Shown here piece after piece: positions 4,755 to 23,235 of a stretch of 32,681 nucleotides of DNA. The DNA comes from Candidatus Nomurabacteria bacterium RIFCSPLOWO2_12_FULL_46_14 (lineage in GTDB: Bacteria > Patescibacteriota > Minisyncoccia > Phycocordibacterales > UBA9973). The notes below the pieces were generated by a model. That model saw nothing but the letters and a program-made list of their open reading frames with translations. It was not told the DNA's origin and did not search any database. The stretch covers positions 3,336 to 36,016 of the forward strand of contig MFVV01000033.1 in assembly GCA_001786225.1 (NCBI GenBank). The letters run 5' to 3'. Positions within the stretch are counted from its first letter, which is position 1. Each line of letters starts with the position of its first letter. Made by a program: the position numbers and the translations under genes.

Positions 4755-5219
4755 TTAGACGTATTTTATTTTAAAGCCCCTGCGCCCTTTTTCAATATGC
4801 GAAATTTCTATCTGGTGGTGAGACTTCGGCATAACCTTGGCGACCCTCTCCGGCCATTCCAGTAAAACAAGGTTCTTGGGATTTTTGATTATCTCTCGCC
4901 AACCCAGATAAAGAAGTTCTTGGCCGCTCTTTAGGCGATAGGCATCTAGATGAAAAAGGTTTTCTATCGGCTCTCCTTGGAGAGGGTAGCGCCGGATAAT
5001 AACAAAGGTGGGGCTTGGCATTTTTCTTTTTATCCGGAGCAGTTTACCGACAGCTTGAACGAAGGCGGTTTTGCCGGCCGAGAGCTCTCCAGACAAACCC
5101 ACAACTATTGCCCGCTTCCTTATTCGGGAAAACAAAACGCGCCTCAAAAAACCACGGGCTATTTCTTCCGTTTCCTTTTTACTCCTGGATATTTTTGACA
5201 CAGAAGCCATGTCTGACAT
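4755..5219 (-). CDS. tsaE: tRNA threonylcarbamoyladenosine (t6A) biosynthesis ATPase TsaE
   Basis: 154 aa. P-loop GLSGELSAGKTAFVQAVGK, then HLDAYRL and the LLEWPE motif typical of TsaE/YjeE. Confidence 0.85.
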   Translation of the reverse strand: MSDMASVSKISRSKKETEEIARGFLRRVLFSRIRKRAIVVGLSGELSAGKTAFVQAVGKLLRIKRKMPSPTFVIIRRYPLQGEPIENLFHLDAYRLKSGQELLYLGWREIIKNPKNLVLLEWPERVAKVMPKSHHQIEISHIEKGRRGFKIKYV

Positions 5220-5234
5220 ATTACCACAACATTA

Positions 5235-5243
5235 TGATATACT
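5235..5243 (+). promoter_or_regulatory. extended -10 box TGATATACT, 7 nt upstream of the ATG at 5251
   Basis: The sequence reads atTGATATACTgatggcaATGgct. This argues for 5251 as the pilB start rather than 5071, 5209 or 5245. Confidence 0.4.
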
Positions 5244-5250
5244 GATGGCA

Positions 5251-6948
5251 ATGGCTGATTTTGATGAAGAAAAACAGAATAAACAGCTGGAGGATTTGCG
5301 CCGGGAGGAGGAAGAGCAACTGATAGCGACTCTGGCCGAATCTAAATACGGCCTGCCCTACATCAACCTGACCCGTTTGGGAGTGGACAACGAGGCGCTC
5401 CGCGCCATTCCGGAAGCGGAAGCGCGAGAACTCAAGGTGGCCCCATTCAAGCTCTCCGGCAAAAATATTTTCATTGCCATCCGTTCGCCGGAAGAAAATC
5501 TTTTTGCCAAACTCAAGGAAGATATGGAGCGAAAAAATCTTGTCCCCTCTTTTTATATGGTTTCCCTGGCCTCTCTCAACAAAGTCTGGGAGAGATACCA
5601 GGAGCTTTCTCTGGCGGAGAGTTCTAAAGAAGGAGGCGTGGACATTTCTGGCGAGGTGCTCCGGCAGACCGCGGAAAGCATTCACCAAATAGAGGACATC
5701 GGCAAGCTTATCACCGAGACGGCGGAGGGTAGCAAAATTCACAAAGTCTCCCGGATGCTGGAGGTAATCCTCGCGGGCGCCATCGCCATTAAAGCCTCGG
5801 ACATTCATATTGAGCCGGAAAAAGACCGCGGCCGTATACGTCTGCGTCTGGACGGAGTCCTCCAGGATGTAGCCTTTTTTGACCTGGACTTGTACCGATT
5901 GCTCAACTCCCGCATCAAGCTCCTCTCCGGACTCAAGCTTACTTCCAAAATAACCCAAGACGGCAGATTCTCCATTATGGAAGCGGGCACGGAGCTCTCC
6001 ATCCGCACTTCTCTCATTCCCGGCACTTATGGCGAAGCTATTGTCCTCCGTATCTTAGACCCCAAGTCCATCCAGGTACCCCTGGAAGAACTTGGCATTG
6101 AGCAGTATCTCTTCTCCATTGTAGAGCAAGAAATAAGGAAGCCCAATGGCCTCATCCTGGTAACTGGGCCAACCGGCAGCGGCAAAACCACCACCCTTTA
6201 CGCCTTCCTGCGTAAAATATATTCTACGGAGATAAATATAATCACCATCGAGGACCCGGTAGAGTATCATCTGGAAGGCATAACCCAGACCCAGATCAGC
6301 CAGAAAAGAAATTACAATTTCCCCGAGGGCCTACGTTCCGCTCTGCGCCAGGACCCAGACGTAATCATGGTCGGCGAAATCCGCGACACGGATACCGCAA
6401 AAATCGCGGTGCAGTCGGCGCTCACCGGCCATATGGTCTTCTCTACTCTCCACACCAATAATGCCGCCGGGGTTATTCCTCGCCTGATTGACCTGGGAGT
6501 TAATCCCAAAATCATGGTGTCCGCTCTATCGCTTTCCATGGCCCAGCGCCTGGTGCGCAAGCTCTGCTCGGAGTGCAAGACGGAAAAGGTGCCTACCGAA
6601 GATGAGACGGCAACATTGAAACTCGTTATGCAAAGCATCGAAGAAGAGGGTAAGGACTTTTCAAAATACAAAATAGACAAGAATGCGCCGGTCAAACTTT
6701 ATGAAGCGCCTGGCTGTGAGAAATGCAACATGACCGGCTACAGGGGCAGAATCGGCATATTTGAAGCCATCCAGACCGACGCGGAAATAGAAAAAATAAT
6801 TCCGACTAATCCCAGCGAGCGGGAAATAAAAAAAGTGGCCAAACAACAGGGCATCCTCTCCATGCGTCAAGACGGCTTGATAAAAATACTCTCCGGCATC
6901 ACTTCCTTAGCCGAAGTAGCGAGTGTGGTGGATATGCGGGAGGAGTAA
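5251..6948 (+). CDS. pilB: type II secretion / type IV pilus assembly ATPase (GspE/PilB family)
   Basis: Walker A GPTGSGKTTT. Asp box IITIEDPVEY. Walker B DPDVIMVGEIRD. His box GHMVFSTLHTN. Tetracysteine CSEC...CEKC. The start is ambiguous (5209, 5245 or 5251); 5251 was chosen from the promoter spacing. Confidence 0.9.
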   Translation: MADFDEEKQNKQLEDLRREEEEQLIATLAESKYGLPYINLTRLGVDNEALRAIPEAEARELKVAPFKLSGKNIFIAIRSPEENLFAKLKEDMERKNLVPSFYMVSLASLNKVWERYQELSLAESSKEGGVDISGEVLRQTAESIHQIEDIGKLITETAEGSKIHKVSRMLEVILAGAIAIKASDIHIEPEKDRGRIRLRLDGVLQDVAFFDLDLYRLLNSRIKLLSGLKLTSKITQDGRFSIMEAGTELSIRTSLIPGTYGEAIVLRILDPKSIQVPLEELGIEQYLFSIVEQEIRKPNGLILVTGPTGSGKTTTLYAFLRKIYSTEINIITIEDPVEYHLEGITQTQISQKRNYNFPEGLRSALRQDPDVIMVGEIRDTDTAKIAVQSALTGHMVFSTLHTNNAAGVIPRLIDLGVNPKIMVSALSLSMAQRLVRKLCSECKTEKVPTEDETATLKLVMQSIEEEGKDFSKYKIDKNAPVKLYEAPGCEKCNMTGYRGRIGIFEAIQTDAEIEKIIPTNPSEREIKKVAKQQGILSMRQDGLIKILSGITSLAEVASVVDMREE

Positions 6949-7629: not shown

Positions 7630-8316
7630 ATGAGTAACAAATATGCGAAATTTATCAAGGCTTTAAGAAACGAGCGGGGGTTTTCTCAGTCGTTTATGGC
7701 TGGAAAACTTGGGATTTCAAGACCATCGTATATAGGTGTGGAAAATGGGACTCGCGAAATAACTCTAGAGGAGGCAGAAAAATTGAAAGATTTGTTTGGG
7801 ATTTCTATTGAAGAATTTGCAAATGCAACTCTCCCCCAATACGAAAAATATAAGCAAATGATTCTCGCATATCTAAAGTCCTACATGACTTCTTCTGACG
7901 GCAAAATACCAAAGACAAAATTAGCGAAGCTTTTATACCTTGCTGATTTTTCGTGGTTTTACAAAAACTTAAACAGCATGAGTGGAATGCAATACTTGCG
8001 TCGCGCATACGGTCCCGTACCAGATCCATATTTTCGAGCGCTTGATGAACTTGAGGAAGAAGGGAAAATAAAAATTGACCCCAAGGGCGATGCTCTCCTG
8101 GTTTCACTTTCTGGTTCTTCACCAAATCAAAAACTTGATAAACTATCAGAAAAGGAGTTGGAATTAATAAAAAAAATTGGCGCAAAATGGAAAGAGAAAA
8201 ATACCCGAGACATTGTCGATTTTACTCACGAACAATTACCATACAAACTCTGCTCTCCAGATGAAGTAATACCGTACGAGTTGATAATCCAGCAAGATCC
8301 CGATTATGTCTACTAA
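7630..8316 (+). CDS. XRE-family HTH fused to a DUF4065 (Panacea/SocA-like) antitoxin domain
   Basis: The N-terminus LRNERGFSQSFMAGKLGISRPSYIGVENGTREITLEEAEKL is a classic HTH_3. The C-terminal part KTKLAKLLYLADFSWFY...MQYLRRAYGPVPDPYF matches the DUF4065 pattern (KLxKLLYxAD ... YGPV). Confidence 0.8.
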   Translation: MSNKYAKFIKALRNERGFSQSFMAGKLGISRPSYIGVENGTREITLEEAEKLKDLFGISIEEFANATLPQYEKYKQMILAYLKSYMTSSDGKIPKTKLAKLLYLADFSWFYKNLNSMSGMQYLRRAYGPVPDPYFRALDELEEEGKIKIDPKGDALLVSLSGSSPNQKLDKLSEKELELIKKIGAKWKEKNTRDIVDFTHEQLPYKLCSPDEVIPYELIIQQDPDYVY

Positions 8317-8747: not shown

Positions 8748-10178
8748 TCACAAGTGGTAAACGGCGGCGTAGCCTCGGTCTTTTGTACATTTAAAAGCTT
8801 TGGTTAAATTATCATCCAAGTCGTCTTGTATTTTACTCTCCTGCGGCATATCGTAATTGGAATACAAAAAGTAAACCTCTCTGCCGATATAATTCTTATC
8901 CAATTCTTCTCGGAGTGAGTCAAATTTCCACGGGTCCGGGTAGAGTTTATTCTCCTTACGGGTGTAATAATAACTGATGGGAGACTGGTTGGTAAGGATG
9001 AGAGAATTGTGTTCCTGATTGGCCAAGAATTTATTGGCCTCCCAAAAACATGTTGTTGCCTGGTCGTTGGCCTTGTTTTCGTAAATTGCTGCTACTCCCG
9101 CGACCGAAATAAGCAGAATGGCTCCGACAAATCCGAGAATCAAGTTCCCGAATCTTTTCAATTCGCTCAGCAAGAACCCGACAAGAAGGCAAACGGCCGG
9201 AACTATCGGCAGGATAAACCTATTCTCCTTGTGGGGCATAAAGCTCACCACTAAAAAAAAGAAAATCACCCAGGCCAGAAGGAGTATAATTTCTCGCCTT
9301 AACCATCTTTTCTTAAAAGACACATAAAAAAGCGCCAGAAGGAATAGGCTGGCGATGACTGAAAAATTAAGCCAGGCTGATTGCAAAAAGAAGGTCCACG
9401 GCTGAACACCACCCCAGTAGGCCGAGGCTTGAAAGCCGTGGACAAACGCGCCCAGAGGATTGTCGTAATATACAAAACCGTATAGGAGCCAAGGCAGAAG
9501 AGTGAGTAAAAATACTCCTGCACCATACCAGAGATATTTGTCTTTAAGAAATTTAAATGATTTTTCTTTGAGCAGGAGATAAAATAAAAAAACCGGCCCG
9601 AGCCAAAGCGTGGTATAGCGGGCAAGCAAAGCCAGAGCCAAGAATAAGCCGAACAACATTTTATATTTATTATCTCTTCGCTCAAAGCCCCGCCAAAAAC
9701 TGATAAAAGAAAGGAGAAGAAAAAAAACTACAAAAGTATCCGTCCAGATTTGTCCGCTGGCGAAAATATGCACCGGCAAGAGAGAAAATAAAAAAGCCGC
9801 GTAAAGGCCTGCCCTTCGGTTAAATAATTCTTTACCTAAGATATAAACCAAAAATGCGGAAAGGGCGGCAAAAAATGGAAGGAGAAATGGAATCAGAAAA
9901 TCAAGATTGAAAAAATAAAAAATAGAAAGGGTGTAGGGCAAAAGCGGCGCCCGGAAACCAATATTCGGCCAGGCATAGACCGGGTCGTCCGCGGGAATGA
10001 AGTCGTTCCAACCCGAATTTTGCAAAGAATAGTTTAAGGGCTGTTCGCTCAACTGCCGGCCTAAATTGAGGTAAACGGTCTCATCCCAGCCCCGGAGGGG
10101 AGAATAAAAAACAAACAAAATTCTGACGAGAAAAGTAAAAACAATAATTAAAATGAGGAGTTTTTTGTGAAGGTCCAT
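8748..10178 (-). CDS. GT-C fold glycosyltransferase (family 39 / PMT_2 / ArnT-like) polytopic membrane protein
   Basis: 476 aa with about 11 TM helices. The first-loop motif RGWDETVYLNLG is the DE motif of PMT/ArnT-type enzymes. It has a soluble C-terminal domain. Confidence 0.75.
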   Translation of the reverse strand: MDLHKKLLILIIVFTFLVRILFVFYSPLRGWDETVYLNLGRQLSEQPLNYSLQNSGWNDFIPADDPVYAWPNIGFRAPLLPYTLSIFYFFNLDFLIPFLLPFFAALSAFLVYILGKELFNRRAGLYAAFLFSLLPVHIFASGQIWTDTFVVFFLLLSFISFWRGFERRDNKYKMLFGLFLALALLARYTTLWLGPVFLFYLLLKEKSFKFLKDKYLWYGAGVFLLTLLPWLLYGFVYYDNPLGAFVHGFQASAYWGGVQPWTFFLQSAWLNFSVIASLFLLALFYVSFKKRWLRREIILLLAWVIFFFLVVSFMPHKENRFILPIVPAVCLLVGFLLSELKRFGNLILGFVGAILLISVAGVAAIYENKANDQATTCFWEANKFLANQEHNSLILTNQSPISYYYTRKENKLYPDPWKFDSLREELDKNYIGREVYFLYSNYDMPQESKIQDDLDDNLTKAFKCTKDRGYAAVYHL

Positions 10179-11224
10179 TTTTTATTGCCGATAAAATTTA
10201 TTATAAAAGCGACACCGATGGCCAAAGTCTGGGAAATCACGTAGTAGATGTCGAAAAACTCGGTAAAAACATACAGGCAAAAAATATTTACCCCAAAAGC
10301 CGCTAGAGCCACCGCGAAAAACCTCCCGTATTTTATCATTAATTTATCCTTTAGCATCTCCCTGAACGTCCACAGCTTATTGAGAATAAAATTAAAGGTT
10401 AGAGAAATAATAAAAGACAAACTGGCGGAGATCAGATAATATATGCCGGCATATTCGGTTAGGAGATATAAAAAGGCCAGATTAACAAAGGTTCCCAGGA
10501 TGCCGACTAGGGCAAATTGAAAAAATTCAGAAACTATGTTCCTCCGGTTTGGGAGATAAGCCCATAGATTCCGTAGGTAGAAAAAAATCTCTCCGAGCCC
10601 CGCCTTGCTCTCCCCGGCCCTCCGGTCGGTGAAGGTAATGGGTATCTCTGTTATTTTACCCGGTTTAGTTTTTACCAAAATCTCCAGCAAGATTTTAAAT
10701 CCTCGGGAATTTATTTCTATATTTTTTATCAAATCTCTCCGAAACATGAAAAAACCGGACATCGGGTCTTCCACTTCGGTGAAAATTCTCGCCAGGATGG
10801 TGGCGCCCCGAGACATAAGCCGCCGTTGCCAACTAGAGCCTTCTATCCGTCCTAGTGCCATGTAGCGGCTGCCGATGGCGATTTCCGCCCCGGATGTTAC
10901 GGCATTATACATTTCCGAAAGTCTCTCCGGCGGATGGCTCAAGTCCGCGTCCATTACTCCAATAATTTCTCCGCCGGCAATCCGAAGTCCGTCGTGTATC
11001 GCGGAAGAAAGACCCAGCTTGCCCGGCCGATGCATCACTGATAGACTGGAGTAAGTATTTTTCAGGTTTTCCATAATTTCCCCCGTGCCGTCGGGAGAAT
11101 TGTCGTCCACTACGACAATTTCGCCGTCTATATTGTGGACCTCAAATTCTTTTTTTACCCGCGATAGAAGATTAACGATATTTTCCCTTTCGTTGTAAGT
11201 CGGAATGATTAGGCTTAATTTCAT
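10148..11224 (-). CDS. GT2 polyprenol-phosphate (dolichol-P-mannose synthase-like) glycosyltransferase fused to a GtrA-like membrane domain
   Basis: Motifs IIPTYNERENI, VVDDNSPDGT and MDADLSHPP are typical Dpm1/Ppm1-type GT2. The C-terminal four-TM domain FALVGILGTFVNLAFLY...NFILNKLWTF is GtrA-like. It overlaps the downstream GT-C gene by 31 nt. Confidence 0.85.
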   Translation of the reverse strand: MKLSLIIPTYNERENIVNLLSRVKKEFEVHNIDGEIVVVDDNSPDGTGEIMENLKNTYSSLSVMHRPGKLGLSSAIHDGLRIAGGEIIGVMDADLSHPPERLSEMYNAVTSGAEIAIGSRYMALGRIEGSSWQRRLMSRGATILARIFTEVEDPMSGFFMFRRDLIKNIEINSRGFKILLEILVKTKPGKITEIPITFTDRRAGESKAGLGEIFFYLRNLWAYLPNRRNIVSEFFQFALVGILGTFVNLAFLYLLTEYAGIYYLISASLSFIISLTFNFILNKLWTFREMLKDKLMIKYGRFFAVALAAFGVNIFCLYVFTEFFDIYYVISQTLAIGVAFIINFIGNKKWTFTKNSSF

Positions 11225-11240
11225 AGAAACATTTTAAACG

Positions 11241-11398
11241 AAAAAACACTAATCTCCAAACAATCCTTTTAGGGCTATGCCCCGAAAGTAACAAGCCCGT
11301 AGAGGATAGCACCAGCGACCCAGTAAAGAGTGCCAAAACGTCCTCGAGAAACTTGTATAACCTGTGGCTGATTGCTTAGAGATTAGTGCCTTCTCTCT
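11241..11398 (-). ncRNA. candidate structured RNA of unknown class (about 158 nt)
   Basis: A 19-bp closing helix pairs 11247..11265 with 11370..11388. On the minus strand the helix is complete, with two G.U wobbles; on the plus strand those positions would be A.C mismatches. Internal hairpins are GAGGA/UCCUC (11302..11306 with 11341..11345, extended by GCAC/GUGC) and GGGC/GCCC. The minus strand has TATAAT at 11411..11406 and a U6 tract (11246..11241) directly after the closing helix. No convincing ORF. Confidence 0.45.
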
Positions 11399-11432
11399 TA
11401 TATCAATTATACTATTACCCCTACCCGACAAA

Positions 11433-11441
11433 TGTTATAAT
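11433..11441 (+). promoter_or_regulatory. extended -10 box TGTTATAAT upstream of ruvB (about 62-nt leader with a small hairpin at 11474..11490)
   Basis: Sequence match only. This is the one promoter-like box here that is not immediately adjacent to its ATG. Confidence 0.35.
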
Positions 11442-11509
11442 GTTGAGAACTAAGGGGATAGTGTGTTTATAAAACTCTCCTTTGAGGAGTATAGCACAAT
11501 AATAAATTA

Positions 11510-12568
11510 ATGTCAAGTTTAAAGAACAAGAACAAAAATGAGAACGGCGACGACTTCACTTTGGTGGAAACTCTACGCCCTACCCGCTGGGATGAGTATA
11601 TCGGCCAAAAACACATAAAAGACAACGTTAAAATTCTTCTACGAGCAGCCGAGGAGCGTGGGCATATTCCGGAACACATCCTTTTTTACGGACCCCCGGG
11701 ACTGGGTAAAACTACACTCGCGCACCTGATAGCCAAGGAAACAGGCAGGCAAATGAAGATAACTTCTGGTCCTGCCATAGAAAAAATAGGGGATTTGGCT
11801 TCCATCCTGACAAACCTTTCGCCTGGAGATATTGTTTTTATAGATGAAATTCACAGACTGAATAAAATGGTGGAGGAAATACTCTATCCAGCAATGGAGT
11901 CAGGGGTTTTAGACATTATAATCGGCAAGGGCCCTTCGGCTCGCACTATCCAGCTGGACCTGCCACCTTTCACCTTAATCGCGGCTACCACCCGAGTGGC
12001 TATGGTGTCTTCCCCTCTGCGTTCCCGATTCTCCGGCGGAGTTTTCCGCCTGGAATTTTATTCTGAAGATGAAATTTCGAAAATCATCCGACGGTCCGGC
12101 AAAATTCTAGAAACAGCGTTGGAAGATGATGCCGTCTCGGAAATAGCAAAGCGGAGCCGTTTTACCCCCCGCACCGCAAATTATTTCTTAAAAAGAGTCC
12201 GGGACTTCGCGCAAGTAAACCCCGAAGGATCCCGCCAAGGCGGGACCTACGGGGCAGGCAAGAAAATTATCAGCAAAGAAACAACGAGGAGTGCCCTGGC
12301 TATGCTGGCAGTAGACGACATCGGATTAAATTCTTCAGACAGAAAGTTTTTAGAAATTTTGATAGAAAAATTCGGCGGCGGGCCGGTGGGGCTAAAAACG
12401 ATAGCCGCGGCGATGTCTGAAGAAGAAGCAACTATAGAAGAAGTAATAGAACCCTATCTAATACAGCTCGGGCTTCTAGAGCGCACCGCCCGCGGCCGAG
12501 TAGCCACCAAGAAAGCGCATGAGCATTTGGGATTTGATTTTAAAGAAGGGCAAAGAAAATTATTATGA
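11510..12568 (+). CDS. ruvB: Holliday junction branch migration helicase RuvB
   Basis: LRPTRWDEYIGQ, Walker A GPPGLGKTTLA, Walker B IVFIDEIHRL, sensor TTRVAMVSSPLRSRF. There is an about 15-aa insertion (NPEGSRQGGTYGAGKK) before the winged-helix domain. Confidence 0.95.
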   Translation: MSSLKNKNKNENGDDFTLVETLRPTRWDEYIGQKHIKDNVKILLRAAEERGHIPEHILFYGPPGLGKTTLAHLIAKETGRQMKITSGPAIEKIGDLASILTNLSPGDIVFIDEIHRLNKMVEEILYPAMESGVLDIIIGKGPSARTIQLDLPPFTLIAATTRVAMVSSPLRSRFSGGVFRLEFYSEDEISKIIRRSGKILETALEDDAVSEIAKRSRFTPRTANYFLKRVRDFAQVNPEGSRQGGTYGAGKKIISKETTRSALAMLAVDDIGLNSSDRKFLEILIEKFGGGPVGLKTIAAAMSEEEATIEEVIEPYLIQLGLLERTARGRVATKKAHEHLGFDFKEGQRKLL

Positions 12569-17044: not shown

Positions 17045-18145
17045 TCATGCGGGATTCATCGGCATAATCAGATACAAAAAAGAGCTGTCCCCGACTCCCT
17101 CAATCACCATAGGCTTACCGGAGTGATTTAAGCTTATGGAGATGCTATCCGCACCGAGGGATTGGAAGCAGTCCAAAAAATATTTGTAGTTAAAGGAAAG
17201 CTCCAGATTCTCGCCCTCTAGGGCGCCGTCCAGATAGGTCTTATTTTCGCCGACATCGTTGTTGGCCGAAGAAAGCTCAAAAATTTTCTCTTTGGGCCGG
17301 ACGCTTAAATTGAGCTGGTTCCACTTGTCGGAAAACACATTAGAGAGCTTGAGCGCGTTCAAAAGGTCCTGCTTGAGGACAATGGCCTTAGTCTCTCTAT
17401 TTTTAGGAATAATTTGGCGATAGTCCGGGAAGATTCCGTCTAGGACGCGGGAAGTCAAATAAACATTATGAGCGGTGAAAGAAATTTGGTTCTTGTTAAA
17501 GCAAACCTTGACCTCTTCATTCAACTCCCCCAGCACCCTTAGGATATCCGGAATATTCCGGAAGGGAATCAAAATTCCGGGGATGTCCGGCAACCCTTTA
17601 ACTTTTATCTTTTTCTCCGCCAAGCGGAAGGAATCGGTAGCGACAAAACGGAGCTGTCCGTCCTCGGCATAGAGGAAGACACTGGAAATCTCCGGCTTTA
17701 TGTCTGAGGGCGAAGAGCTGTAAGACACCGACTTTATGCCTTCTACCAGTTTCTTGGCTTCTATCTCAAAAGATGTTCCAACCACCGCGGGGATGGTGGG
17801 GAAATCGTCGTGGCTCTGGCCTTTCAATCTTATTCTGCTCTTTTGGGTTTTAATGGAGAGGTTGCCGTCCAAACTCTCCAATTCCGCGTTTTCGTTTTGA
17901 AATATATTGGAAAACACTCCGGCTAAAACCGAGCCGGCGACGGCAACAATGCCTTCTTTTTCCACCTTGGCGGGTATCTCCGCTTCAATACCCAAGCTTA
18001 GGTTGGTAGCCCGCAATTTTATAGACTTACCGGAAGCGATTAAAAGCAGAGAATTCAAAACCGGCAGAGTAAGATTTTTACCGGTTATTCTTTCAGTCTT
18101 CCATATAGCGTCTTTTATTTTTTCTACTTCGCATTGTGCTTTCAT
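17045..18145 (-). CDS. dnaN: DNA polymerase III beta sliding clamp
   Basis: 366 aa, immediately downstream of dnaA. It has typical three-domain length and an N-terminus KNLTLPVLNSLLLIASGKSIKLRATNLSLGIE. The C-terminus ends with MPMNP. Confidence 0.9.
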   Translation of the reverse strand: MKAQCEVEKIKDAIWKTERITGKNLTLPVLNSLLLIASGKSIKLRATNLSLGIEAEIPAKVEKEGIVAVAGSVLAGVFSNIFQNENAELESLDGNLSIKTQKSRIRLKGQSHDDFPTIPAVVGTSFEIEAKKLVEGIKSVSYSSSPSDIKPEISSVFLYAEDGQLRFVATDSFRLAEKKIKVKGLPDIPGILIPFRNIPDILRVLGELNEEVKVCFNKNQISFTAHNVYLTSRVLDGIFPDYRQIIPKNRETKAIVLKQDLLNALKLSNVFSDKWNQLNLSVRPKEKIFELSSANNDVGENKTYLDGALEGENLELSFNYKYFLDCFQSLGADSISISLNHSGKPMVIEGVGDSSFLYLIMPMNPA

Positions 18146-18197
18146 ATGTTTATATCTTTCTTTATTTAAATTATTAATACTATTAGGGCAGTTAATA

Positions 18198-18206
18198 AGT
18201 GGATAA
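18198..18206 (-). promoter_or_regulatory. DnaA-box-like 9-mer TTATCCACT (8/9) in the dnaA-dnaN spacer, next to an AT-only tract at 18229..18250
   Basis: The plus strand reads AGTGGATAA. The 112-bp spacer is very AT-rich. Confidence 0.35.
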
Positions 18207-18257
18207 GATGTTTTTGTCTTGGCGGGTAATATTTAAAAAAATATTTTTAACTGAATA

Positions 18258-19604
18258 TCACCTGAACATTATTCTTATTTGGTCTAACTCCTGAGAGAGC
18301 TGGGGGTCGGTTTTTATTTCTTCTTTTATTTTGAGATAGGAATGGATGACGGTGGTATGGTCCTTGCCGCCTAGTTTTTGACCGATTAGGGGGTAAGAAA
18401 CATTAAAGTCCTCCCGCAGGAGATACATTACCACCTGCCTGGCTCGGACAATTTCTTTCCGCCTGGTTTTTTCGTATATTGAGTTTTCGTCCAGATTGTA
18501 ATGCTCACTGACCACCTTGACCACGTCCTTAATGGCCACGGTTTTCTTGGGTTTGATGTTGTTTTTAAGCAGATTTTTCACTTCCACGGCGGTTAGGGGC
18601 TTGTTCTTTAGGCGATATTGGCAGAGAATCGTGTTCAAGCTTCCCTCCAGCTCCCTAATGTTGCCGAAAATAGCTGTAGCCACATACTCCATTATTTCTG
18701 GAGGCAGTTTGAGACCCAACTCCTCGGCTTTTACCTTAAGGATGGCCAGCCGGGATTCGTACTCCGGCTCAATAATGTCCACTATCATTCCCGCCGCGAA
18801 ACGGGATTTCAGCCGGTCGGCAAGCTCCGGTATGTGGTTGGGATGCTTGTCGGAGGAAAATATTATCTGCTTGTTGCTTTCGTGAAAAGTGTTGAAGGTG
18901 TGGAAAAGCTCTTCCTGGATTTTCTCCATTTTGCCGATGAACTGGATGTCGTCGATAATCAGGAGGTCGTACTTCCGATATTTTTCCTTGAAGGAATTAG
19001 CCTTGTTGCCCTGCAGGGAGTTTATGAAATCAGTGGCAAATTTTTCCAAAGTCATATAATGGACCTTTTTCTCCGGGAACTTGTCTTTAATGGAGTTGCC
19101 AATGGCCTGGATTAGGTGGGTTTTACCCAAGCCTGTGCCGCCATAGACAAAAAACGGATTATATTTTGTCCCCGGGCTCTCAATAATGGCTTGAGAGGCG
19201 GCGTAGGCCAGTTCATTGAAGCCTCCGACGATGAAAGAGTCAAAGCGATAGCGGGAGTTGAGATTGTCTTCCGGATTTATGTAAAGGTCCCGGAGTGGCA
19301 GTTCCTTATTGCTACCGTAAACCGCGCCGGCGGCCGATATCTCCTGCTTTTCCGATTCTATTTTGGTAATGACGTATTCCACCGCCCGCATATTTTCATA
19401 GGCGTCGGCAATGGTCTTGGTGATAAGTTTGTGGTATTTGTTTTTCAGCCAGTCCCGGACAAATTCATTGGGTACGGCAATGTAAATTATGCCCGTTTCT
19501 TCCCTTAGAATGGAGGTATTCCGGAACCAGGTGCTGAAATTCGCTTTTGAAACCCCGGTTTCTATCTCCGTGAGGCAGTTTTGCCAAAGTTCTTTTGTGT
19601 CCAT
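18258..19604 (-). CDS. dnaA: chromosomal replication initiator DnaA
   Basis: Walker A GGTGLGKTHL, Walker B LLIIDDIQF, and sensor/box VII SDKHPNHIPELADRLKSRF. C-terminal DNA-binding domain: RRKEIVRARQVVMYLLRE...IGQKLGGKDHTTVIHS. Confidence 0.95.
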   Translation of the reverse strand: MDTKELWQNCLTEIETGVSKANFSTWFRNTSILREETGIIYIAVPNEFVRDWLKNKYHKLITKTIADAYENMRAVEYVITKIESEKQEISAAGAVYGSNKELPLRDLYINPEDNLNSRYRFDSFIVGGFNELAYAASQAIIESPGTKYNPFFVYGGTGLGKTHLIQAIGNSIKDKFPEKKVHYMTLEKFATDFINSLQGNKANSFKEKYRKYDLLIIDDIQFIGKMEKIQEELFHTFNTFHESNKQIIFSSDKHPNHIPELADRLKSRFAAGMIVDIIEPEYESRLAILKVKAEELGLKLPPEIMEYVATAIFGNIRELEGSLNTILCQYRLKNKPLTAVEVKNLLKNNIKPKKTVAIKDVVKVVSEHYNLDENSIYEKTRRKEIVRARQVVMYLLREDFNVSYPLIGQKLGGKDHTTVIHSYLKIKEEIKTDPQLSQELDQIRIMFR

Positions 19605-19664
19605 AATGATTCATCATTATACTCCCCAAGCGCGAATAGCAAGCAATTTTTAACTTACTAACTC

Positions 19665-19673
19665 TGTTGATAA
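19665..19673 (-). promoter_or_regulatory. DnaA-box-like 9-mer (plus strand TGTTGATAA, 8/9 to TGTGGATAA) in the dnaA/rpmH divergent spacer
   Basis: Sequence match only. A weaker 7/9 site, GGTGGAAAA, follows at 19676..19684. Confidence 0.3.
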
Positions 19674-19731
19674 TCGGTGGAAAAAAATACAAGCAGTTGC
19701 CTAAAGCCTGATTTTAGTATAAAATCATTAT

Positions 19732-19866
19732 ATGTCCCAAACATACCAGCCTAAAAAAAGAAAGCGAGCTAAGACCCACGGATTTTTAAAGAGACGAAAG
19801 AGTAAAACTGGCCAGCGGACGCTCCAGCGCCGCAGGAGAAAAGGCAGAGCCAGGCTCGCTGTTTAA
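19732..19866 (+). CDS. rpmH: 50S ribosomal protein L34 (not in the ORF track, 44 aa)
   Basis: [44 protein letters not shown] is the canonical L34 sequence pattern. It sits in the canonical position upstream of rnpA and divergent from dnaA. Confidence 0.95.
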
Positions 19867-19872
19867 TGTTTC

Positions 19873-19942
19873 GCAGGTTTCAGGTTTTTTCTCCCTCCTC
19901 GCACATTTACCGCCTTGTCGTTCGAAAAAACCTGAAACCTGC
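19873..19942 (+). terminator. 19-bp perfect hairpin (GCAGGTTTCAGGTTTTTTC / GAAAAAACCTGAAACCTGC) with a 32-nt GC-richer loop, between rpmH and rnpA
   Basis: The arms are 19873..19891 and 19924..19942, followed by TTTCAC. It could be an attenuator or terminator between rpmH and rnpA, or a small palindromic element. Confidence 0.5.
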
Positions 19943-19958
19943 TTTCACTTATAACTAA

Positions 19959-20282
19959 ATGATTCCAAAGAAAAACAGGGTCAACCGCAAAGAAATTGAT
20001 GAAATTTTTAGGCGCGGACGCTCGCTATATTCCCCGAGCTTAACTCTTAGGTTTGTTTGGAATAAAGAAAAACTGCCCCCCAAGATTTCCTTCATCACGC
20101 CTAAAACGTTATTCCCTAAAGCTGTTAAACGCAACTTGCTCCGCCGGCGCGGCTATGCCGCGCTCCATCCCAACTTGAGCCGATTCCCTGTGGGCATATC
20201 GGGAGTTTTTATTTTCCAAAGACAGCCGAAATCCGTTTCCGCTCTAGAGGAAGAAATAGAAATAATTCTGGGGAAACTATGA
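19959..20282 (+). CDS. rnpA: ribonuclease P protein component
   Basis: 107 aa, basic. KKNRVNRKEIDEIFRRGRSLYSPSLTLRF and KAVKRNLLRRR (the RNR-like motif). Canonical rpmH-rnpA-yidD-yidC order. Confidence 0.9.
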   Translation: MIPKKNRVNRKEIDEIFRRGRSLYSPSLTLRFVWNKEKLPPKISFITPKTLFPKAVKRNLLRRRGYAALHPNLSRFPVGISGVFIFQRQPKSVSALEEEIEIILGKL

Positions 20283-20488
20283 AAAAAGCCTTAATTAATT
20301 TAATTGTCTTTTACCAAAAAAGAATTAGCGTATTTAAGAAAAAAAGCTGTGTTTTTTACCCTACTTGCTCCGAATATGCCAAAGAGGCGATTCGGAAATA
20401 TGGCGCCCTCCGGGGCGCTTGGCTCTCTCTACGCAGAATCCTGCGCTGTCATCCCTGGCAAAAAAATCATATTGACCCGGTTAAATAA
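20279..20488 (+). CDS. yidD: membrane protein insertion efficiency factor YidD
   Basis: YQKRIS....CVFYPTCSEYAKEAIRKYGALRGAWLSLRRILRCHPW is the YidD signature. It has an ATGA overlap with rnpA. Confidence 0.9.
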   Translation: MKKALINLIVFYQKRISVFKKKSCVFYPTCSEYAKEAIRKYGALRGAWLSLRRILRCHPWQKNHIDPVK

Positions 20489-20584
20489 AGAAAAATAATC
20501 GAGAAAAAGCGACGGGTGGGGGCGTGCCGTTCCGAGCGAAGCGAGGAATGGGGTTAAGGAGTTTTTTCCCGATTATTTTTCTTT
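20487..20584 (+). terminator. 98-nt imperfect hairpin element: AT-only stem (about 23 bp) enclosing a 50-nt GC-rich loop with its own inner hairpin
   Basis: AAAGAAAAATAATCG (20487..20501) pairs with CGATTATTTTTCTTT (20570..20584), extended by GAAAAAGC/GTTTTTTC. The inner hairpin is CCGTTCC...GGAATGG (20528..20552). It lies between yidD and yidC. Confidence 0.45.
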
Positions 20585-20620
20585 ATTGAAATTATGGGTG
20601 AATTCATATAGAATGAAAAA

Positions 20621-21364
20621 ATGCTTGGAAATTTATGGGATATTTTTTTATACGAGCCCTTGGTAAACCTCCTAGCCTTCCTGGTATACATTATACCCGG
20701 AGGAGACATCGGTATTGCCATCATTCTGCTTACCGTGCTGGTGAAAGCCGCTCTTTTCCCCCTATCTCAGCGCTCTATTCTAGGCCAGGCCAAAATGGCT
20801 CTCCTGGCTCCAGAGCTAAACAAAATAAAGGCAAGCGGCAAGAGTAAGGAAGAACAGGCTAAAGACACCTTCGAGCTTTACAAAAAACATAAAGCCAACC
20901 CTTTTTCCGGCTGTTTACTCATGCTGATTCAGATACCGATAATATTCGCCCTGTATTATGTTTTTTTAAGAGGGATAAACTTCGACAGCGGAATTTTGTA
21001 TTCCTTTATGCCGGTTCCAGAGAAAGTGAACATGATTTTTCTCGGTCTGGTCGATGTCAGCCAGAAAAGTCTTGCCTTGGCGATACTGGCCGGGATTTCC
21101 CAATACTTCCAAGCGCACTTTATGCCCAAGCCCACTCCTCCCACCTCTGGCCAGGGCACCTTCGCAGACAGTTTCTCGAAAAGCATACATATTCAGATGA
21201 AGTATTTTTTCCCTTTCCTGATAGCCTTCTTTGCTTACACTCTCTCCGGCGCTATAGCTCTGTACTGGATAGCCAACAATGTATTCGCCACTCTGCAACA
21301 GCTTTATACCAACAAAAGGAAACATTTAATGTTGGCCAATAAATATGCCGATGAACAAAAATGA
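20621..21364 (+). CDS. yidC: membrane protein insertase YidC (short, Gram-positive/Oxa1-like form)
   Basis: 247 aa with five TM helices. Motifs: AIILLTVLVKAALFPLS, ELYKKHKANPFSGCLLMLIQIPIIFALY and ALYWIANNVFATLQQ. TAGAAT lies 6 nt upstream of the ATG. Confidence 0.9.
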   Translation: MLGNLWDIFLYEPLVNLLAFLVYIIPGGDIGIAIILLTVLVKAALFPLSQRSILGQAKMALLAPELNKIKASGKSKEEQAKDTFELYKKHKANPFSGCLLMLIQIPIIFALYYVFLRGINFDSGILYSFMPVPEKVNMIFLGLVDVSQKSLALAILAGISQYFQAHFMPKPTPPTSGQGTFADSFSKSIHIQMKYFFPFLIAFFAYTLSGAIALYWIANNVFATLQQLYTNKRKHLMLANKYADEQK

Positions 21365-21836
21365 GATTATTAATTTAATAAGAGAACTTATTGAGAGAAC
21401 TACCGTAGGCGTAGAGGCTATAAGCGTGGCTGAGAATGATGTTGCCAAAGGCAAAGACAGCGAAGAAACAATTTGGATTCAGGCAGAAGTCCGGGAGCCT
21501 TATTTTTTCCTGGACCGCGGCGGGGAGGGGCTGTCGGCCTTAAATCATGTAGTTCGCAAAATTGTTGAAGCCAGGGTGGAAGCGGAGACCCCCTTTAACA
21601 TTATGGTTGACATCAACGGCTTTCAGAGAAAGAAAATAGAAAATCTCAAAGCCGTGGCGCATATGATGGCGGAGCGCGCCCGATATTTCAAATCCAATAT
21701 TGAAATTGATCCCATGTCCGCTTTTGAGCGGCGGATAATCCACGAGTTTTTGTCCGATGCCGCCGACCTTAAAACCGAGTCAGCCGGAGAGGGGCCTAAC
21801 CGCCGAGTGGTTATTAAGTATATCGGAGGAATATAA
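21345..21836 (+). CDS. jag: Jag/KhpB-type RNA-binding protein (KH plus R3H domains)
   Basis: R3H motif FERRIIHEFL. It ends GEGPNRRVVIKY. It sits in the canonical position after yidC and overlaps the yidC stop by 20 nt. Confidence 0.8.
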   Translation: MPMNKNEIINLIRELIERTTVGVEAISVAENDVAKGKDSEETIWIQAEVREPYFFLDRGGEGLSALNHVVRKIVEARVEAETPFNIMVDINGFQRKKIENLKAVAHMMAERARYFKSNIEIDPMSAFERRIIHEFLSDAADLKTESAGEGPNRRVVIKYIGGI

Positions 21837-21910
21837 TAAAACAAAAAAATGTCTTATAAAGGCGTACGCAGGCTGACGAGCCGGCCTTTAGAAGATATTT
21901 TTTTGTTTTA
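21837..21910. terminator. 27-bp AT-rich hairpin with a 20-nt GC-rich loop between convergent genes (bidirectional terminator candidate)
   Basis: 21837..21863 pairs with 21884..21910, with one G.U and one mismatch. The arms touch the stop codons of both jag and the 21908 gene. Confidence 0.55.
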
Positions 21911-23230
21911 TTCTAACTCCAGTTTCCAGAGATAAGAATCTTTTTTGTTGACCAAAAATAGCAGATTCTCGCCGTTCCCCAAGGCAAGCTTTACGCCATC
22001 AATTTTTGCCACCAAACTCAAATCGGCTATCAGACTGGTGTTGCCGGTTTCCACCTCCACCTTCCAGATTTCGTCCGAAAAAGAAACCTCTCCCTGGTAC
22101 CAGGTGTCGGGATAAGTGAAGCCGGTGGCTGACTTCGGCGCCGCGCAATACAGAATTTCACTCCCTCGACCCCAAACGCATTTCTCCGCCAGGGTTTGAA
22201 TGCCTAAAGCGGTGGATTCCCGGCTTTCAATTCTATAGACATTAAGCCTCAGGTTGCTGTTGCTCCAAAGAATCATTTTGCCGTCCGGACTTGCAAGAGT
22301 GGTCAGGCCGTTTATGTCGCCGAAAATCCGGCTGAAGTTTTTTGTGTCGGGGTTGAGCGCGTAAACATGGCCCGCCGTGGCGTAAGAGGGCTTGGTGGCG
22401 AGGGTAATCATCTTGGCGCTTGGCCAATATGATGTCCATTCGGTAAAGGGGGAATCAAACACTACGGTTTTCTTGCCGGTTTTGAGGTCCATTACTGTGC
22501 CGACTACTCCATCTCCGGCCGGAGTCAGATAAAATATTTTCGTGGCGTCAGGCGAGAGGCTCAAATCCGAAATATTCTCCGACAAGAAGCTCCCCCGGAC
22601 CTCGTTTTTTTCCAAAGAATCTCCACCCAAAACTTCTTTAGGCAGATTGCCCAAAAATGTTTGGATAGTCTTCTCGTCGCTCTTGAGATAGCGCATAACA
22701 ACCACCTCGCCCTTCAAGCCAAAATGCGCTTCGTAAACTTTCGGGATAAGGGTATCGGTGAACTTGCGCTCCGCTATTTGGTCCACAAACGTCTGGTAAA
22801 TGTTGCCGGTGGCCCGGTCCACATATCTTAAAGCGGGGGCGAATTCCGTGGGGAGCGAAATTGGGTTTTTGGGTAGAGAAGGAGTAGCGCCCCCTTCCTC
22901 TCCTTGGGAGAGGGCCGGGGTGAGGTTAATTTCTTTGTATCTTTCTTTAAGGAATAGAGTATAACCGGCTACCGGAACGTTTGAGACTCTAGTTAACTTT
23001 TTAGCCGCCTCGGATAGTTCGTCGGGTTCGTAGCCGGATATATCTTCCGGCGGGGTCGTTGCGGTGGGTTTAGACGAGCTTTGGCCGAAAGGATTGAAGT
23101 CGGAGAAGAAATTGGTGCCGCCCTCATTTGGAATAGTCGTGGCTGGCTCCCGGAAATACAAGTAGGCGAAAAATCCAGCCGTCAGAATGACCAGAATGAT
23201 AACTATTAAAATCAAATTTCTTCGGGACAT
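21908..23230 (-). CDS. membrane-anchored beta-propeller-like protein (TolB/PD40-like repeats), last gene of the secretion operon
   Basis: The ATG at 23230 was chosen because the ORF-track start at 23254 is a TTG. TM anchor LILIVIILVILTAGFFAYLYF. Repeated LSPDATKIFYLTP / ASPDGKMILWSNS motifs are typical of PD40-type blades. Confidence 0.65.
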   Translation of the reverse strand: MSRRNLILIVIILVILTAGFFAYLYFREPATTIPNEGGTNFFSDFNPFGQSSSKPTATTPPEDISGYEPDELSEAAKKLTRVSNVPVAGYTLFLKERYKEINLTPALSQGEEGGATPSLPKNPISLPTEFAPALRYVDRATGNIYQTFVDQIAERKFTDTLIPKVYEAHFGLKGEVVVMRYLKSDEKTIQTFLGNLPKEVLGGDSLEKNEVRGSFLSENISDLSLSPDATKIFYLTPAGDGVVGTVMDLKTGKKTVVFDSPFTEWTSYWPSAKMITLATKPSYATAGHVYALNPDTKNFSRIFGDINGLTTLASPDGKMILWSNSNLRLNVYRIESRESTALGIQTLAEKCVWGRGSEILYCAAPKSATGFTYPDTWYQGEVSFSDEIWKVEVETGNTSLIADLSLVAKIDGVKLALGNGENLLFLVNKKDSYLWKLELE

Positions 23231-23235
23231 GAATT

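What the first reader, a model, noticed from the sequence alone, without database searches (positions are those of the whole stretch)
11241..11398. Candidate novel structured RNA in the 285-bp gap upstream of the GT2 gene
A 19-bp helix closes an about 104-nt interior that contains at least two further hairpins.

Strand evidence for the minus strand:
- Both imperfect positions in the long helix, and one in the inner helix (11308:11334), are G.U on the minus strand but A.C on the plus strand.
- The minus strand supplies a TATAAT (11411..11406) about 7 nt before the first helix.
- It also supplies a U6 tract directly after the helix.

The GT2 gene then has its own TAAAAT box 6 nt from its ATG. 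So this could be either an independent small RNA or an OFF-type leader whose P1 helix doubles as the terminator. I could not match it to SRP, 6S, RNase P, tmRNA, TPP, c-di-AMP, purine, ykkC or fluoride motifs by eye.
Basis: seen in the sequence. Interest (0 to 1): 0.65.

Follow-up and report, generated by a model that had tools for sequence, protein, structure and literature searches.

The report
Conserved four-way-junction small RNA gene
The 285-bp gap holds a stand-alone gene for a roughly 158-nucleotide, tightly folded RNA that sits at the same spot in every related Parcubacteria (candidate phyla radiation) genome examined, matches no catalogued RNA family, and has no known job.

Summary
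The minus strand of 11241-11399 folds at -66.5 to -71.8 kcal/mol (z about -7.7). It has its own -10 box (TAGTATAAT, 11414-11406), and a 26-bp closing helix followed by U6.

The same element lies upstream of ruvB, on the opposite strand, in 78 of 78 informative Nomurabacteria-type loci. It is also present in all 11 more distant Parcubacteria lineages sampled (Giovannoni-, Ryan-, Pacebacteria and others; RuvB 58-75% identical), always between pilB and ruvB.

Covariation supports a four-way junction of P1, P2, P3 and P4: 97% of cells are paired, 22 pairs change on both sides, and 0 of 500 shuffles reach that.

The element is not tied to the GT2 gene. None of 80 GT2 loci carries it, and the downstream neighbour is usually a convergent pilB. 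The leader or riboswitch reading is therefore rejected.

Rfam 15 gives no match, whether for the window, for 26 homologous loci at gathering thresholds, or for the element itself at E up to 10. Ten full-text literature searches found no description.

The element fails the tests run here for 6S, SRP, Y RNA and mobile elements.

Best reading: a new family of stable, trans-acting, probably protein-bound small RNA. Its function is unknown. A 6S-like role is the leading specific guess, but it is weakened by the closed junction.

The parts
11406..11414 (-). -10 promoter element TAGTATAAT of the RNA gene
   Evidence: Read directly from the sequence. The motif AGTA[T/A/C]AAT lies upstream of the core in 74 of 76 homologues, at a variable distance.
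11241..11399 (-). Predicted primary transcript, about 159 nt. The start is inferred as about 7 nt after the -10 box and the end as the U tract.
   Evidence: Fold -66.5 kcal/mol, z = -7.65. CM R1 scores 149 bits on 11238-11395 and finds a single copy in the window. The ends are inferred, not measured.
11370..11395 (-). P1, 5' strand of the 26-bp closing helix
   Evidence: 99.1% of cells paired. The outer pairs covary (columns 7:157 and 10:154, 20 double changes each). The inner 13 bp are invariant in 76 Nomurabacteria-type sequences.
11240..11265 (-). P1, 3' strand; it runs into the U tract
11377..11381 (-). CUCUA box in the P1 5' strand. It pairs with UGGAG at 11254-11258 and sits 12 bp from the junction.
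   Evidence: C-U-C and its G-A-G partner are unchanged in 13 of 13 sequences from 10 or more lineages, while the rest of P1 covaries (P1 sequences).
11254..11258 (-). UGGAG, partner of the CUCUA box in the P1 3' strand
11359..11369 (-). P2 hairpin (AGCC-ACA-GGUU)
   Evidence: Invariant within Nomurabacteria. Across lineages there are 3-4 pair types at each of its 4 pairs, all paired, and the stem varies from 4 to 8 bp.
11291..11356 (-). P3, a long irregular arm with a variable apex
   Evidence: Covariation at 44:110, 68:86, 71:82, 72:81 and 54:101. The apex carries insertions of up to about 100 nt in L172, L174 and L179.
11332..11344 (-). Conserved P3 module, 5' side (AGGAC...UUGG)
   Evidence: The G-G pairing with C-C and the G113-C241 pair are invariant in 13 of 13. 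The tandem U.G/G.U is found in 12 and 11 of 13, across lineages.
11303..11316 (-). Conserved P3 module, 3' side (CUGG..CUAUCCU)
11266..11288 (-). P4 hairpin
   Evidence: 7 of its 9 pairs change on both sides. It is present with different sequences in distant lineages and absent in L170.
11241..11246 (-). U6 tract directly after P1; together they form an intrinsic terminator
   Evidence: Read from the sequence. The last 12 nt of the core hold a median of 8 U in the homologues.
11433..11441 (+). Context: the ruvB promoter TGTTATAAT, back to back with the RNA promoter. The two -10 hexamers are 24 bp apart.
   Evidence: Read from the sequence. TGYTATAAT is found in 70 of 79 loci, and the spacing is 24-25 bp in 62 of 66 loci.

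Best explanation
It is a stand-alone gene for a stable, structured small RNA of about 158 nt. The RNA belongs to a previously uncatalogued family that is conserved across Parcubacteria (Paceibacteria-type Patescibacteria) at a fixed site between pilB and ruvB.

**Shown**
- The gene has its own -10 promoter.
- In this organism the RNA ends at a terminator made of P1 plus a U tract.
- It folds into a long closing duplex (P1) and a four-way junction carrying a short hairpin (P2), a long irregular arm (P3) and a hairpin (P4).
- It evolves more slowly than the neighbouring ruvB DNA.
- It is independent of whichever gene lies downstream.

**Inferred**
- It acts in trans as the RNA part, or a decoy, of a protein complex.
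- Two elements stay unchanged while everything around them covaries, and these are read as the recognition sites. One is the CUC/GAG box one helical turn below the junction. The other is the AGGAC/UCCU plus UGG/CUG module in P3.
- Variable 5' leaders and, in other lineages, 3' trailers are trimmed back to P1.

The partner is unknown. RNA polymerase holoenzyme (a 6S-like decoy) is the leading specific candidate, at about 0.2. It is a guess based on overall shape.
For: - **Fold and strand:**
- **Conservation and synteny:** nhmmer finds the element upstream of ruvB, on the opposite strand, in 78 of 78 loci that have upstream sequence. CM R1/R2 hits or matching folds occur in the pilB-ruvB gap of all 11 distant lineages.
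- **Structure:** 97.1% of cells paired, 22 pairs changed on both sides, 0 of 500 shuffles as good, and slid registers at or below 55% paired. The top mutual-information column pairs are the predicted base pairs. Across lineages P1, P2, P3a and P4 covary.
- **Purifying selection:** the core averages 80.7% pairwise identity against 70.2% for adjacent ruvB DNA, and its length stays within 155-159 nt.
- **Independent gene:** the -10 motif is present in 74 of 76. Downstream genes differ and are mostly convergent. One genome carries two tandem copies followed by a separate terminator, and several genomes have a separate downstream terminator, which implies processing to a discrete RNA.
- **Not catalogued:**. 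Ten literature searches found nothing.
Against: - There are no expression data, so transcript ends, abundance and stability are all inferred.
- No candidate partner protein was identified, and nothing nearby encodes an obvious RNA-binding partner.
- Conserved synteny with ruvB and the fixed 24-25 bp back-to-back promoter spacing could instead point to a local, cis-linked role.
- P2 is missing in L167 and P4 in L170, so the four-way junction as such is not universal.
- Against the 6S-like sub-hypothesis: there is no RF00013 signal, the junction is closed by covarying hairpins, P1 is a perfect duplex, and no alternative 'release' helix appears when the P1 5' strand is held unpaired.
Confidence: 0.5

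Rival explanations
1. It is the 6S RNA of Parcubacteria. On this reading, a rod-shaped RNA mimics an open promoter, sequesters the sigma-A RNA polymerase holoenzyme, and is released after a short product RNA is made on the P1 5' strand.
For: - The overall layout resembles the 6S description in PMC8876501 and the Rfam consensus. It has a closing stem, a central region with 14-16 nt on the 5' side, an irregular apical arm of about 66 nt, a hairpin on the 3' side, a stand-alone gene and a variable apical loop.
- Conservation is concentrated around the centre.
- Its size matches the shortest known 6S RNAs (own knowledge: Aquifex, about 159 nt).
- An invariant inner P1 would fit a templating region.
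Against: - RF00013 gives no hit even at E up to 10 on 167 nt or on 26 homologous loci.
- The centre is not a bubble. P2 and P4 are real, covarying hairpins, P2 reaching 8 bp, and only about 2+2 nt at the junction are unpaired.
- P1 is an uninterrupted 26-bp duplex, whereas 6S arms are interrupted.
- No alternative helix forms when the P1 5' strand is sequestered.
Confidence: 0.2
2. It acts locally on its neighbours. Two routes are possible. Its promoter could compete with the back-to-back ruvB promoter (transcriptional interference or shared control). Or convergent transcription and the P1 hairpin could terminate or modulate pilB. On this reading the RNA product is secondary.
For: - The position between pilB and ruvB is absolute in every lineage sampled.
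- The two -10 hexamers are 24-25 bp apart in 62 of 66 loci, so the two polymerase footprints overlap.
- pilB usually ends within 0-50 nt of the RNA's 3' end, and in L167 the two overlap.
Against: - Promoter competition or termination needs no conserved 158-nt fold. Here the interior covaries, its length is fixed, and it is more conserved than ruvB DNA.
- In the window pilB is 4.3 kb away, yet the RNA is intact.
- The whole region from polA through tsaE, pilB, ruvB, ruvC and tyrS to pbp is syntenic in these genomes, so the linkage may be simple inheritance.
Confidence: 0.12
3. It is a base-pairing regulatory small RNA, or a self-processing (ribozyme-like) RNA.
For: - It is a stand-alone gene with a terminator, like many small RNAs.
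- Tandem co-transcribed copies in L178 need some form of processing.
- Four-way junctions with conserved internal loops occur in some self-cleaving ribozymes (own knowledge: hairpin and twister-sister ribozymes).
Against: - Nearly all conserved nucleotides sit inside helices. The loops are variable, which leaves no conserved single-stranded seed.
- No Rfam ribozyme family matches.
- A single housekeeping-type locus per genome is unlike the known small self-cleaving ribozymes.
Confidence: 0.08
4. It is a cis-regulatory leader (an OFF riboswitch) of the downstream GT2 glycosyltransferase.
For: In this window the element lies 16 nt upstream of the GT2 start codon on the same strand, and it ends in a terminator.
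Against: - None of 80 loci encoding GT2 relatives has the element.
- In most genomes the downstream gene is convergent, and elsewhere it varies, for example a lysA-like or an inositol-monophosphatase-like gene.
- GT2 has its own -10 box 6 nt before the ATG.
Confidence: 0.02
5. It is a DNA-level feature, such as a miniature inverted-repeat transposable element, or merely a long bidirectional terminator.
For: Long terminal inverted repeats enclose about 104 bp. P1 followed by U6 looks like a terminator.
Against: - There is one copy in the window and in each locus, always at the same site.
- G.U pairs are specific to one strand.
- The interior helices covary.
- The viral contig collection gave no exact match to a conserved-core pattern.
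Confidence: 0.02

Closest known systems
6S RNA (SsrS; Rfam RF00013)
   Same: - Stand-alone gene for a stable RNA of 150-200 nt.
- The 5' and 3' ends form a long closing stem, and there is a long irregular apical arm with a variable tip.
- Conservation is concentrated near the centre.
- A hairpin on the 3' side of the centre also occurs in Bacillus 6S-1 (PMC8876501).
   Different: - No score against RF00013.
- The centre is a closed four-way junction with covarying P2 and P4, not an open bubble.
- The closing stem is a perfect 26-bp duplex carrying an invariant CUC/GAG box.
- The 6S consensus motifs are absent.
- No rearrangement helix forms.
Bacterial Y RNA (YrlA) bound by the Ro orthologue Rsr
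   Same: - The 5' and 3' ends form a long, sequence-conserved stem that serves as a protein-binding site in Y RNAs.
- A multi-branched module sits on top of the stem.
- The loops are variable and the size is similar (own knowledge).
   Different: - No Rfam Y-RNA-type hit.
- No T-loop-like 7-nt loop: the P2 and P4 loops are 3-4 nt and variable.
- The stem has no conserved bulge.
- None of the neighbouring genes scanned carries a Ro/TROVE domain. The rest of the genomes could not be searched.
Signal recognition particle RNA (4.5S / large SRP RNA)
   Same: A universal, stand-alone, rod-like RNA with conserved internal loops that are bound by a protein.
   Different: - SRP RNA is defined by a conserved apical tetraloop and the adjacent domain IV loops (own knowledge). 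Here the apex of P3 is the most variable part and tolerates insertions of about 100 nt.
- No Rfam SRP hit.
- The branch order differs from that of the Alu domain.
Orphan structured bacterial RNAs of unknown function (for example the raiA motif RNA, OLE RNA)
   Same: Clade-restricted, strongly covarying, with highly conserved internal loops, their own transcription unit and no known function (own knowledge).
   Different: - No sequence or structure match to any of them in Rfam 15.
- Different host clade (Patescibacteria), size and architecture.

Membership tests
6S RNA (RF00013) | Scores against the curated covariance model | tested here: not met
   No RF00013 match at gathering score in the window or in 26 homologous loci. 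None at E up to 10 on 411 nt or on 167 nt. The same model scores E. coli ssrS at 139.8 bits.
6S RNA (RF00013) | A largely unpaired central bubble between the closing and apical stems (open-promoter mimic) | tested here: not met
   Both sides are occupied by hairpins supported by covariation. P2 has 3-4 pair types per pair across lineages and is up to 8 bp long; P4 has 7 of 9 pairs changed on both sides. Only about 2+2 nt at the junction are unpaired.
6S RNA (RF00013) | Helical arms interrupted by bulges and internal loops | tested here: inconclusive
   P3 is irregular. P1 is an uninterrupted 26-bp duplex in Nomurabacteria, with single mismatches in some other lineages. The feature is as described in PMC8876501.
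6S RNA (RF00013) | An alternative helix forms when the template strand is occupied by product RNA | tested here: not met
   A consensus fold with columns 10-30 or 15-30 forced unpaired gives no conserved new helix.
6S RNA (RF00013) | Binds the housekeeping RNA polymerase holoenzyme and templates product RNA | not testable with these tools
   Needs biochemistry.
SRP RNA | Conserved apical tetraloop with domain IV internal loops; Rfam SRP models | tested here: not met
   The apex of P3 is the least conserved region (column identity 0.70) and carries large insertions. No Rfam SRP hit.
Bacterial Y RNA (YrlA) | tRNA-like module with a T-loop; gene next to rsr (Ro orthologue) | tested here: not met
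   Loops are 3-4 nt and variable. The Pfam scans of window genes and the precomputed Pfam lists of genes in 15 distant loci show no TROVE/Ro domain. The rest of the genomes was not searched.
Riboswitch or 5' leader | Consistently upstream of, and co-oriented with, a functionally related gene | tested here: not met
   Downstream genes vary and are mostly convergent. The element is absent from the GT2 loci.
Miniature inverted-repeat or other mobile element | Several dispersed copies and variable insertion sites | tested here: not met
   Single copy in 32.7 kb and in each locus, always at the same syntenic site; L178 has a local tandem pair.
Independent small-RNA gene (generic) | Own promoter, own 3' end, conserved structure with covariation, independence from flanking genes | tested here: met
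   Actual transcription was not tested.

The most novel reading that the evidence does not exclude
The element is the RNA subunit of an undescribed ribonucleoprotein that is universal in Parcubacteria. That would make it a new housekeeping-type RNA class alongside 6S, SRP and Y RNAs. The invariant CUC/GAG box in P1 and the AGGAC/UCCU plus UGG/CUG module in P3 would be its protein-recognition sites.

A more speculative variant, which cannot be excluded: the four-way junction encoded next to ruvB and ruvC mimics a Holliday junction and titrates the Ruv proteins. Probability is a few percent at most.
Probability: 0.35. Interest if true: 0.8.

Novelty: categorically new. Interest (0 to 1): 0.7.

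Why it matters
Candidate phyla radiation bacteria make up a large share of bacterial diversity. They have tiny genomes and little experimentally characterised biology.

An RNA kept at one site across lineages as far apart as Nomura-, Giovannoni-, Ryan- and Pacebacteria, and evolving more slowly than a neighbouring core gene, is very likely important to these cells. Yet gene callers annotate nothing there, and Rfam has no model for it.

- If it is their 6S equivalent, it shows how far that RNA can diverge and fills an annotation gap.
- If it is not, it defines a new ribonucleoprotein to look for.

Either way, the alignment and covariance model produced here make the question directly testable in existing metatranscriptomes and by pull-down or biochemical experiments.

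Tried and rejected
**Known RNA families**
- Rfam gave only chance matches: mt-tmRNA at 17.6 bits and two lncRNA fragments at 9-10 bits.

**GT2 link**
- GT2-anchored metagenome loci contained no element. This rejects the leader idea.

**Wider searches for homologues**
- An exact-pattern search of the viral collection for the conserved core found nothing. A RuvB search of the same collection gave one irrelevant locus.
- The first RuvB homologue search returned only relatives at 80% identity or more.
- The 50%-identity cluster representatives were mostly from Firmicutes and Proteobacteria.
- The route that worked used a 64%-identical fragment representative (P0150) as a stepping stone.

**Detection limits**
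- R1 with default filters missed most distant homologues. Switching the filters off and building a broader model, R2, recovered them.
- L172 and L174 were never detected by a covariance model. They were recognised by eye and by their fold.
- With filters off, the long P1 makes ordinary long hairpins and the reverse strand score 25-53 bits. Low-scoring hits were therefore accepted only when they lay in the syntenic gap on the correct strand.

**Structure and alternative readings**
- No 6S-type rearrangement helix was found.
- Tertiary or pseudoknot covariation: apart from one extra pair inside the P3 internal loop (54:101), the remaining mutual-information signals look phylogenetic.
- Coding potential is rejected. 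Loop lengths vary by 1-2 nt and the pattern of change is helix-type covariation.
- A 5' leader that resembles the P1 3' strand in some species never displaces P1 in the minimum-free-energy fold (74 of 74).

**Literature**
- Ten searches found no description.

Full report
**1. What is in the window**

The gap 11225-11509 lies between a minus-strand GT2-GtrA glycosyltransferase gene (10148-11224) and a plus-strand ruvB (11510-12568).

On the minus strand the sequence reads, in order:
- TAGTATAAT (11414..11406);
- a short leader;
- a 26-bp closing helix P1 (11395-11370 pairing with 11265-11240);
- three enclosed hairpins (P2 11369-11359, P3 11356-11291, P4 11288-11266);
- U6 (11246..11241).

The minus strand of 11235-11405 folds at -71.8 kcal/mol (z = -7.70, 0 of 200 shuffles). 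The predicted 159-nt transcript folds at -66.5 kcal/mol (z = -7.65). The plus strand reaches only -42.6 kcal/mol (z = -3.2).

The element is single-copy in the 32.7-kb window.

**2. Not a known family**

Rfam 15 finds only one tRNA in the window at gathering thresholds. It finds nothing credible at E up to 10 on 411 nt or on 167 nt around the element.

Twenty-six homologous loci scanned at gathering thresholds give no hit on the element. The only hit is an unrelated SAM riboswitch in L046.

Ten full-text searches combining Patescibacteria, Parcubacteria, Nomurabacteria or CPR with 6S, ncRNA or structured RNA found no description. A 2024 survey of 50 bacterial genomes does not mention these phyla.

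**3. Conservation in close relatives**

RuvB-anchored loci from 80 species genomes are labelled Candidatus Nomurabacteria, Paceibacterota or Patescibacteria, with RuvB 77-86% identical.

nhmmer finds the element in 78 of them, with E-values of 1e-15 to 1e-28 except one hit cut by a contig end. It is always upstream of ruvB on the opposite strand. The two remaining loci have no upstream sequence.

None of 80 metagenome loci anchored on GT2 relatives has it, either by nhmmer or by covariance model.

The gene downstream of the element differs between genomes. It is most often a convergent 565-aa GspE/PilB-type ATPase gene that ends within 0-50 nt. Elsewhere it is a lysA-like or inositol-monophosphatase-like gene, among others.

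In the window itself, pilB is at 5071-6948. Three small ORFs and the GT-C/GT2 pair lie between it and the RNA. The element therefore belongs to the pilB-ruvB gap, and its position upstream of GT2 here is incidental. This rejects the leader or riboswitch reading.

**4. Structure**

In 76 distinct sequences (alignment A2) the consensus fold is a four-way junction.

| Measure | Result |
|---|---|
| Cells forming standard pairs | 97.1% |
| Pairs changed on both sides | 22 of 59 |
| Cells with a change on both sides | 214 (shuffled mean 49) |
| Shuffles reaching the observed values | 0 of 500 |
| Pairing after sliding the 3' partners by 1-3 columns | 41-55% |

A structure-blind mutual-information ranking puts the predicted pairs on top. 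It adds one pair inside the P3 internal loop (54:101: A-U 41, G-C 20, G.U 13).

Invariant G.U pairs fix the transcribed strand.

The core is 155-159 nt long in all 76 sequences. Its mean pairwise identity is 80.7%, against 70.2% for 900 nt of the adjacent ruvB gene.

Within this clade the inner 13 bp of P1, the P2 stem and the junction nucleotides never change.

**5. Transcription signals**

A -10 motif AGTA[T/A/C]AAT precedes the core in 74 of 76 sequences. Its distance from the core varies, giving predicted leaders of 1-61 nt (median 17.5). Some leaders carry an extra small hairpin. P1 forms in the minimum-free-energy fold of all 74 predicted transcripts.

The ruvB promoter (TGYTATAAT in 70 of 79 loci) lies back to back with it. 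The two -10 hexamers are 24-25 bp apart in 62 of 66 loci.

Transcript starts and ends are inferred. No expression data were available.

**6. Distant relatives**

A fragment representative 64% identical to the window's RuvB served as a stepping stone to RuvB proteins of Giovannoni-, Ryan-, Pacebacteria and unnamed Parcubacteria. These are 58-75% identical to the window's RuvB.

All 11 proteins looked up lie in contigs with the same arrangement: pilB, then an unannotated gap of 185-670 nt, then ruvB.

| Locus | Best covariance-model score (bits), in the gap on the strand opposite ruvB |
|---|---|
| L176 | 138 |
| L177 | 123 |
| L180 | 96 |
| L178 | 91 and 71 (two tandem copies) |
| L168 | 41 |
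| L179 | 41 |
| L167 | 39 |
| L170 | 36 |
| L181 | 32 |

In L172 and L174 the homologue is evident by eye and by fold, with a large insertion at the tip of P3.

One caution applies. With filters off, ordinary long hairpins and reverse strands score 25-53 bits. The weaker hits therefore rest partly on their exact syntenic position and strand.

Independent single-sequence folds of all 19 sequences examined give a long P1 and a long P3. Seventeen also have both P2 and P4; L167 lacks P2 and L170 lacks P4.

In a model-guided alignment of 13 sequences from 10 or more lineages (the alignment is fitted to the model, which favours the structure):
- P1 positions show 2-6 pair types;
- P2 shows 3-4 types at each of its four pairs, with no mismatches;
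- P3a and P4 covary;
- a C-U-C/G-A-G box 12 bp below the junction stays essentially fixed;
- so do the G-G/C-C pairs, the tandem U.G/G.U and a G-C pair in P3.

In several lineages a separate terminator follows the RNA. In L178 two copies share one terminator. The mature RNA is therefore probably trimmed to P1.

**7. What it most likely is**

*Shown:* a conserved, independently promoted, single-locus gene for a compact structured RNA, under stronger constraint than its protein-coding neighbour, across a deep branch of Patescibacteria.

*Inferred:* a stable trans-acting RNA whose invariant duplex box and P3 module are recognition sites for a protein partner.

The most obvious specific candidate is a 6S-type RNA. 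The supporting points are its size, its closing-stem/centre/apical-arm layout, its 3'-side hairpin and its central conservation.

Four tests run here count against that:
- no RF00013 signal;
- a centre closed by covarying hairpins;
- a perfect closing duplex;
- no release helix.

I put the general reading at about 0.5 and the 6S-like version at about 0.2.

A local role remains possible at about 0.1, given the fixed promoter geometry. That could be promoter competition with ruvB or an interaction with convergent pilB. It does not explain the conserved interior.

The leader, mobile-element, plain-terminator and coding readings are rejected (sections 3 and 4).

**8. Novelty**

No catalogued family matches. 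The defining features of 6S, SRP RNA and Y RNA that could be tested were not met. I therefore class it as a new RNA family.

One caveat applies. Its function may turn out to be analogous to that of a known RNA, and the whole genomes could not be searched for canonical 6S, SRP RNA or partner genes.

The window's organism comes from Rifle-type aquifer metagenomes. Gene callers left the gap empty in four independent assemblies.

Noticed in passing
window 11433-11441 (+), and the equivalent site in L001-L080: The ruvB promoter TGTTATAAT sits back to back with the RNA promoter. In about 50 of 79 related loci the ruvB -10 lies inside an inverted repeat, GCTAT-N7-ATAGC (for example GCTATAATGTGTATAGC). 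This looks like an operator overlapping the -10 box and the transcription start. The window's own copy is degenerate.
   Followed up: partly
window 11231-11236 (-), with the ATG at 11224: The GT2 gene has a TAAAAT box only 6 nt before its ATG. This suggests a leaderless mRNA whose -35-like TGGAGA lies inside the 3' arm of the RNA's P1 helix.
   Followed up: no
L178 2044-2219 and 2240-2419 (both -): Two tandem copies of the RNA share nearly identical P3 and P4 but differ in inner P1 and in all of P2, with compensating changes. A single downstream terminator follows the pair.
   Followed up: partly
L167 2808-2962, L170 2741-2887, L172 2722-2960, L174 2724-2960, L179 2005-2242: Lineage-specific variants of the RNA. 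Giovannonibacteria (L167) lacks P2 and Pacebacteria (L170) lacks P4. L172, L174 and L179 carry insertions of about 60-100 nt at the tip of P3.
   Followed up: partly
window 20481-20590 (+): A second long inverted repeat: 28-nt arms, 93% complementary, 54 nt between them. It lies between rnpA (19959-20282) and yidC (20621-21364) and folds at -47.9 kcal/mol, z = -4.7. Conservation was not examined.
   Followed up: partly
window 21832-21915: A 32-nt-arm hairpin (91% complementary, 20-nt loop) between the convergent ORFs 21345-21836 (+) and 21908-23254 (-). It is probably a bidirectional terminator.
   Followed up: no
window 17045-21836: An origin-type gene cluster lies about 6-8 kb from the RNA gene: dnaN, dnaA (18258-19604, -), a 354-nt gap, then rnpA, yidC and jag/R3H.
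   Followed up: no
window 29997-30101: Six tandem copies of the 15-nt unit TGGTGCTCCACCTGC lie inside the 770-aa ORF 29736-32048 (-). That ORF has no Pfam match and sits next to PrgI-like and TraG-like genes.
   Followed up: no
window 7630-8316 (+): An ORF combining HTH_3 with a SocA/Panacea antitoxin-like domain. It lies in the stretch that separates pilB from the RNA in this genome only.
   Followed up: no
L046 5851-5958 (-): A SAM-I riboswitch (RF00162, 51 bits) in a related Nomurabacteria-type locus. It was the only Rfam hit in the 26 loci scanned.
   Followed up: no
window 11477-11489: A small hairpin, CTCCTTTGAGGAG, in the ruvB 5' untranslated region. The scan lists it as terminator-like on the minus strand.
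   Followed up: no
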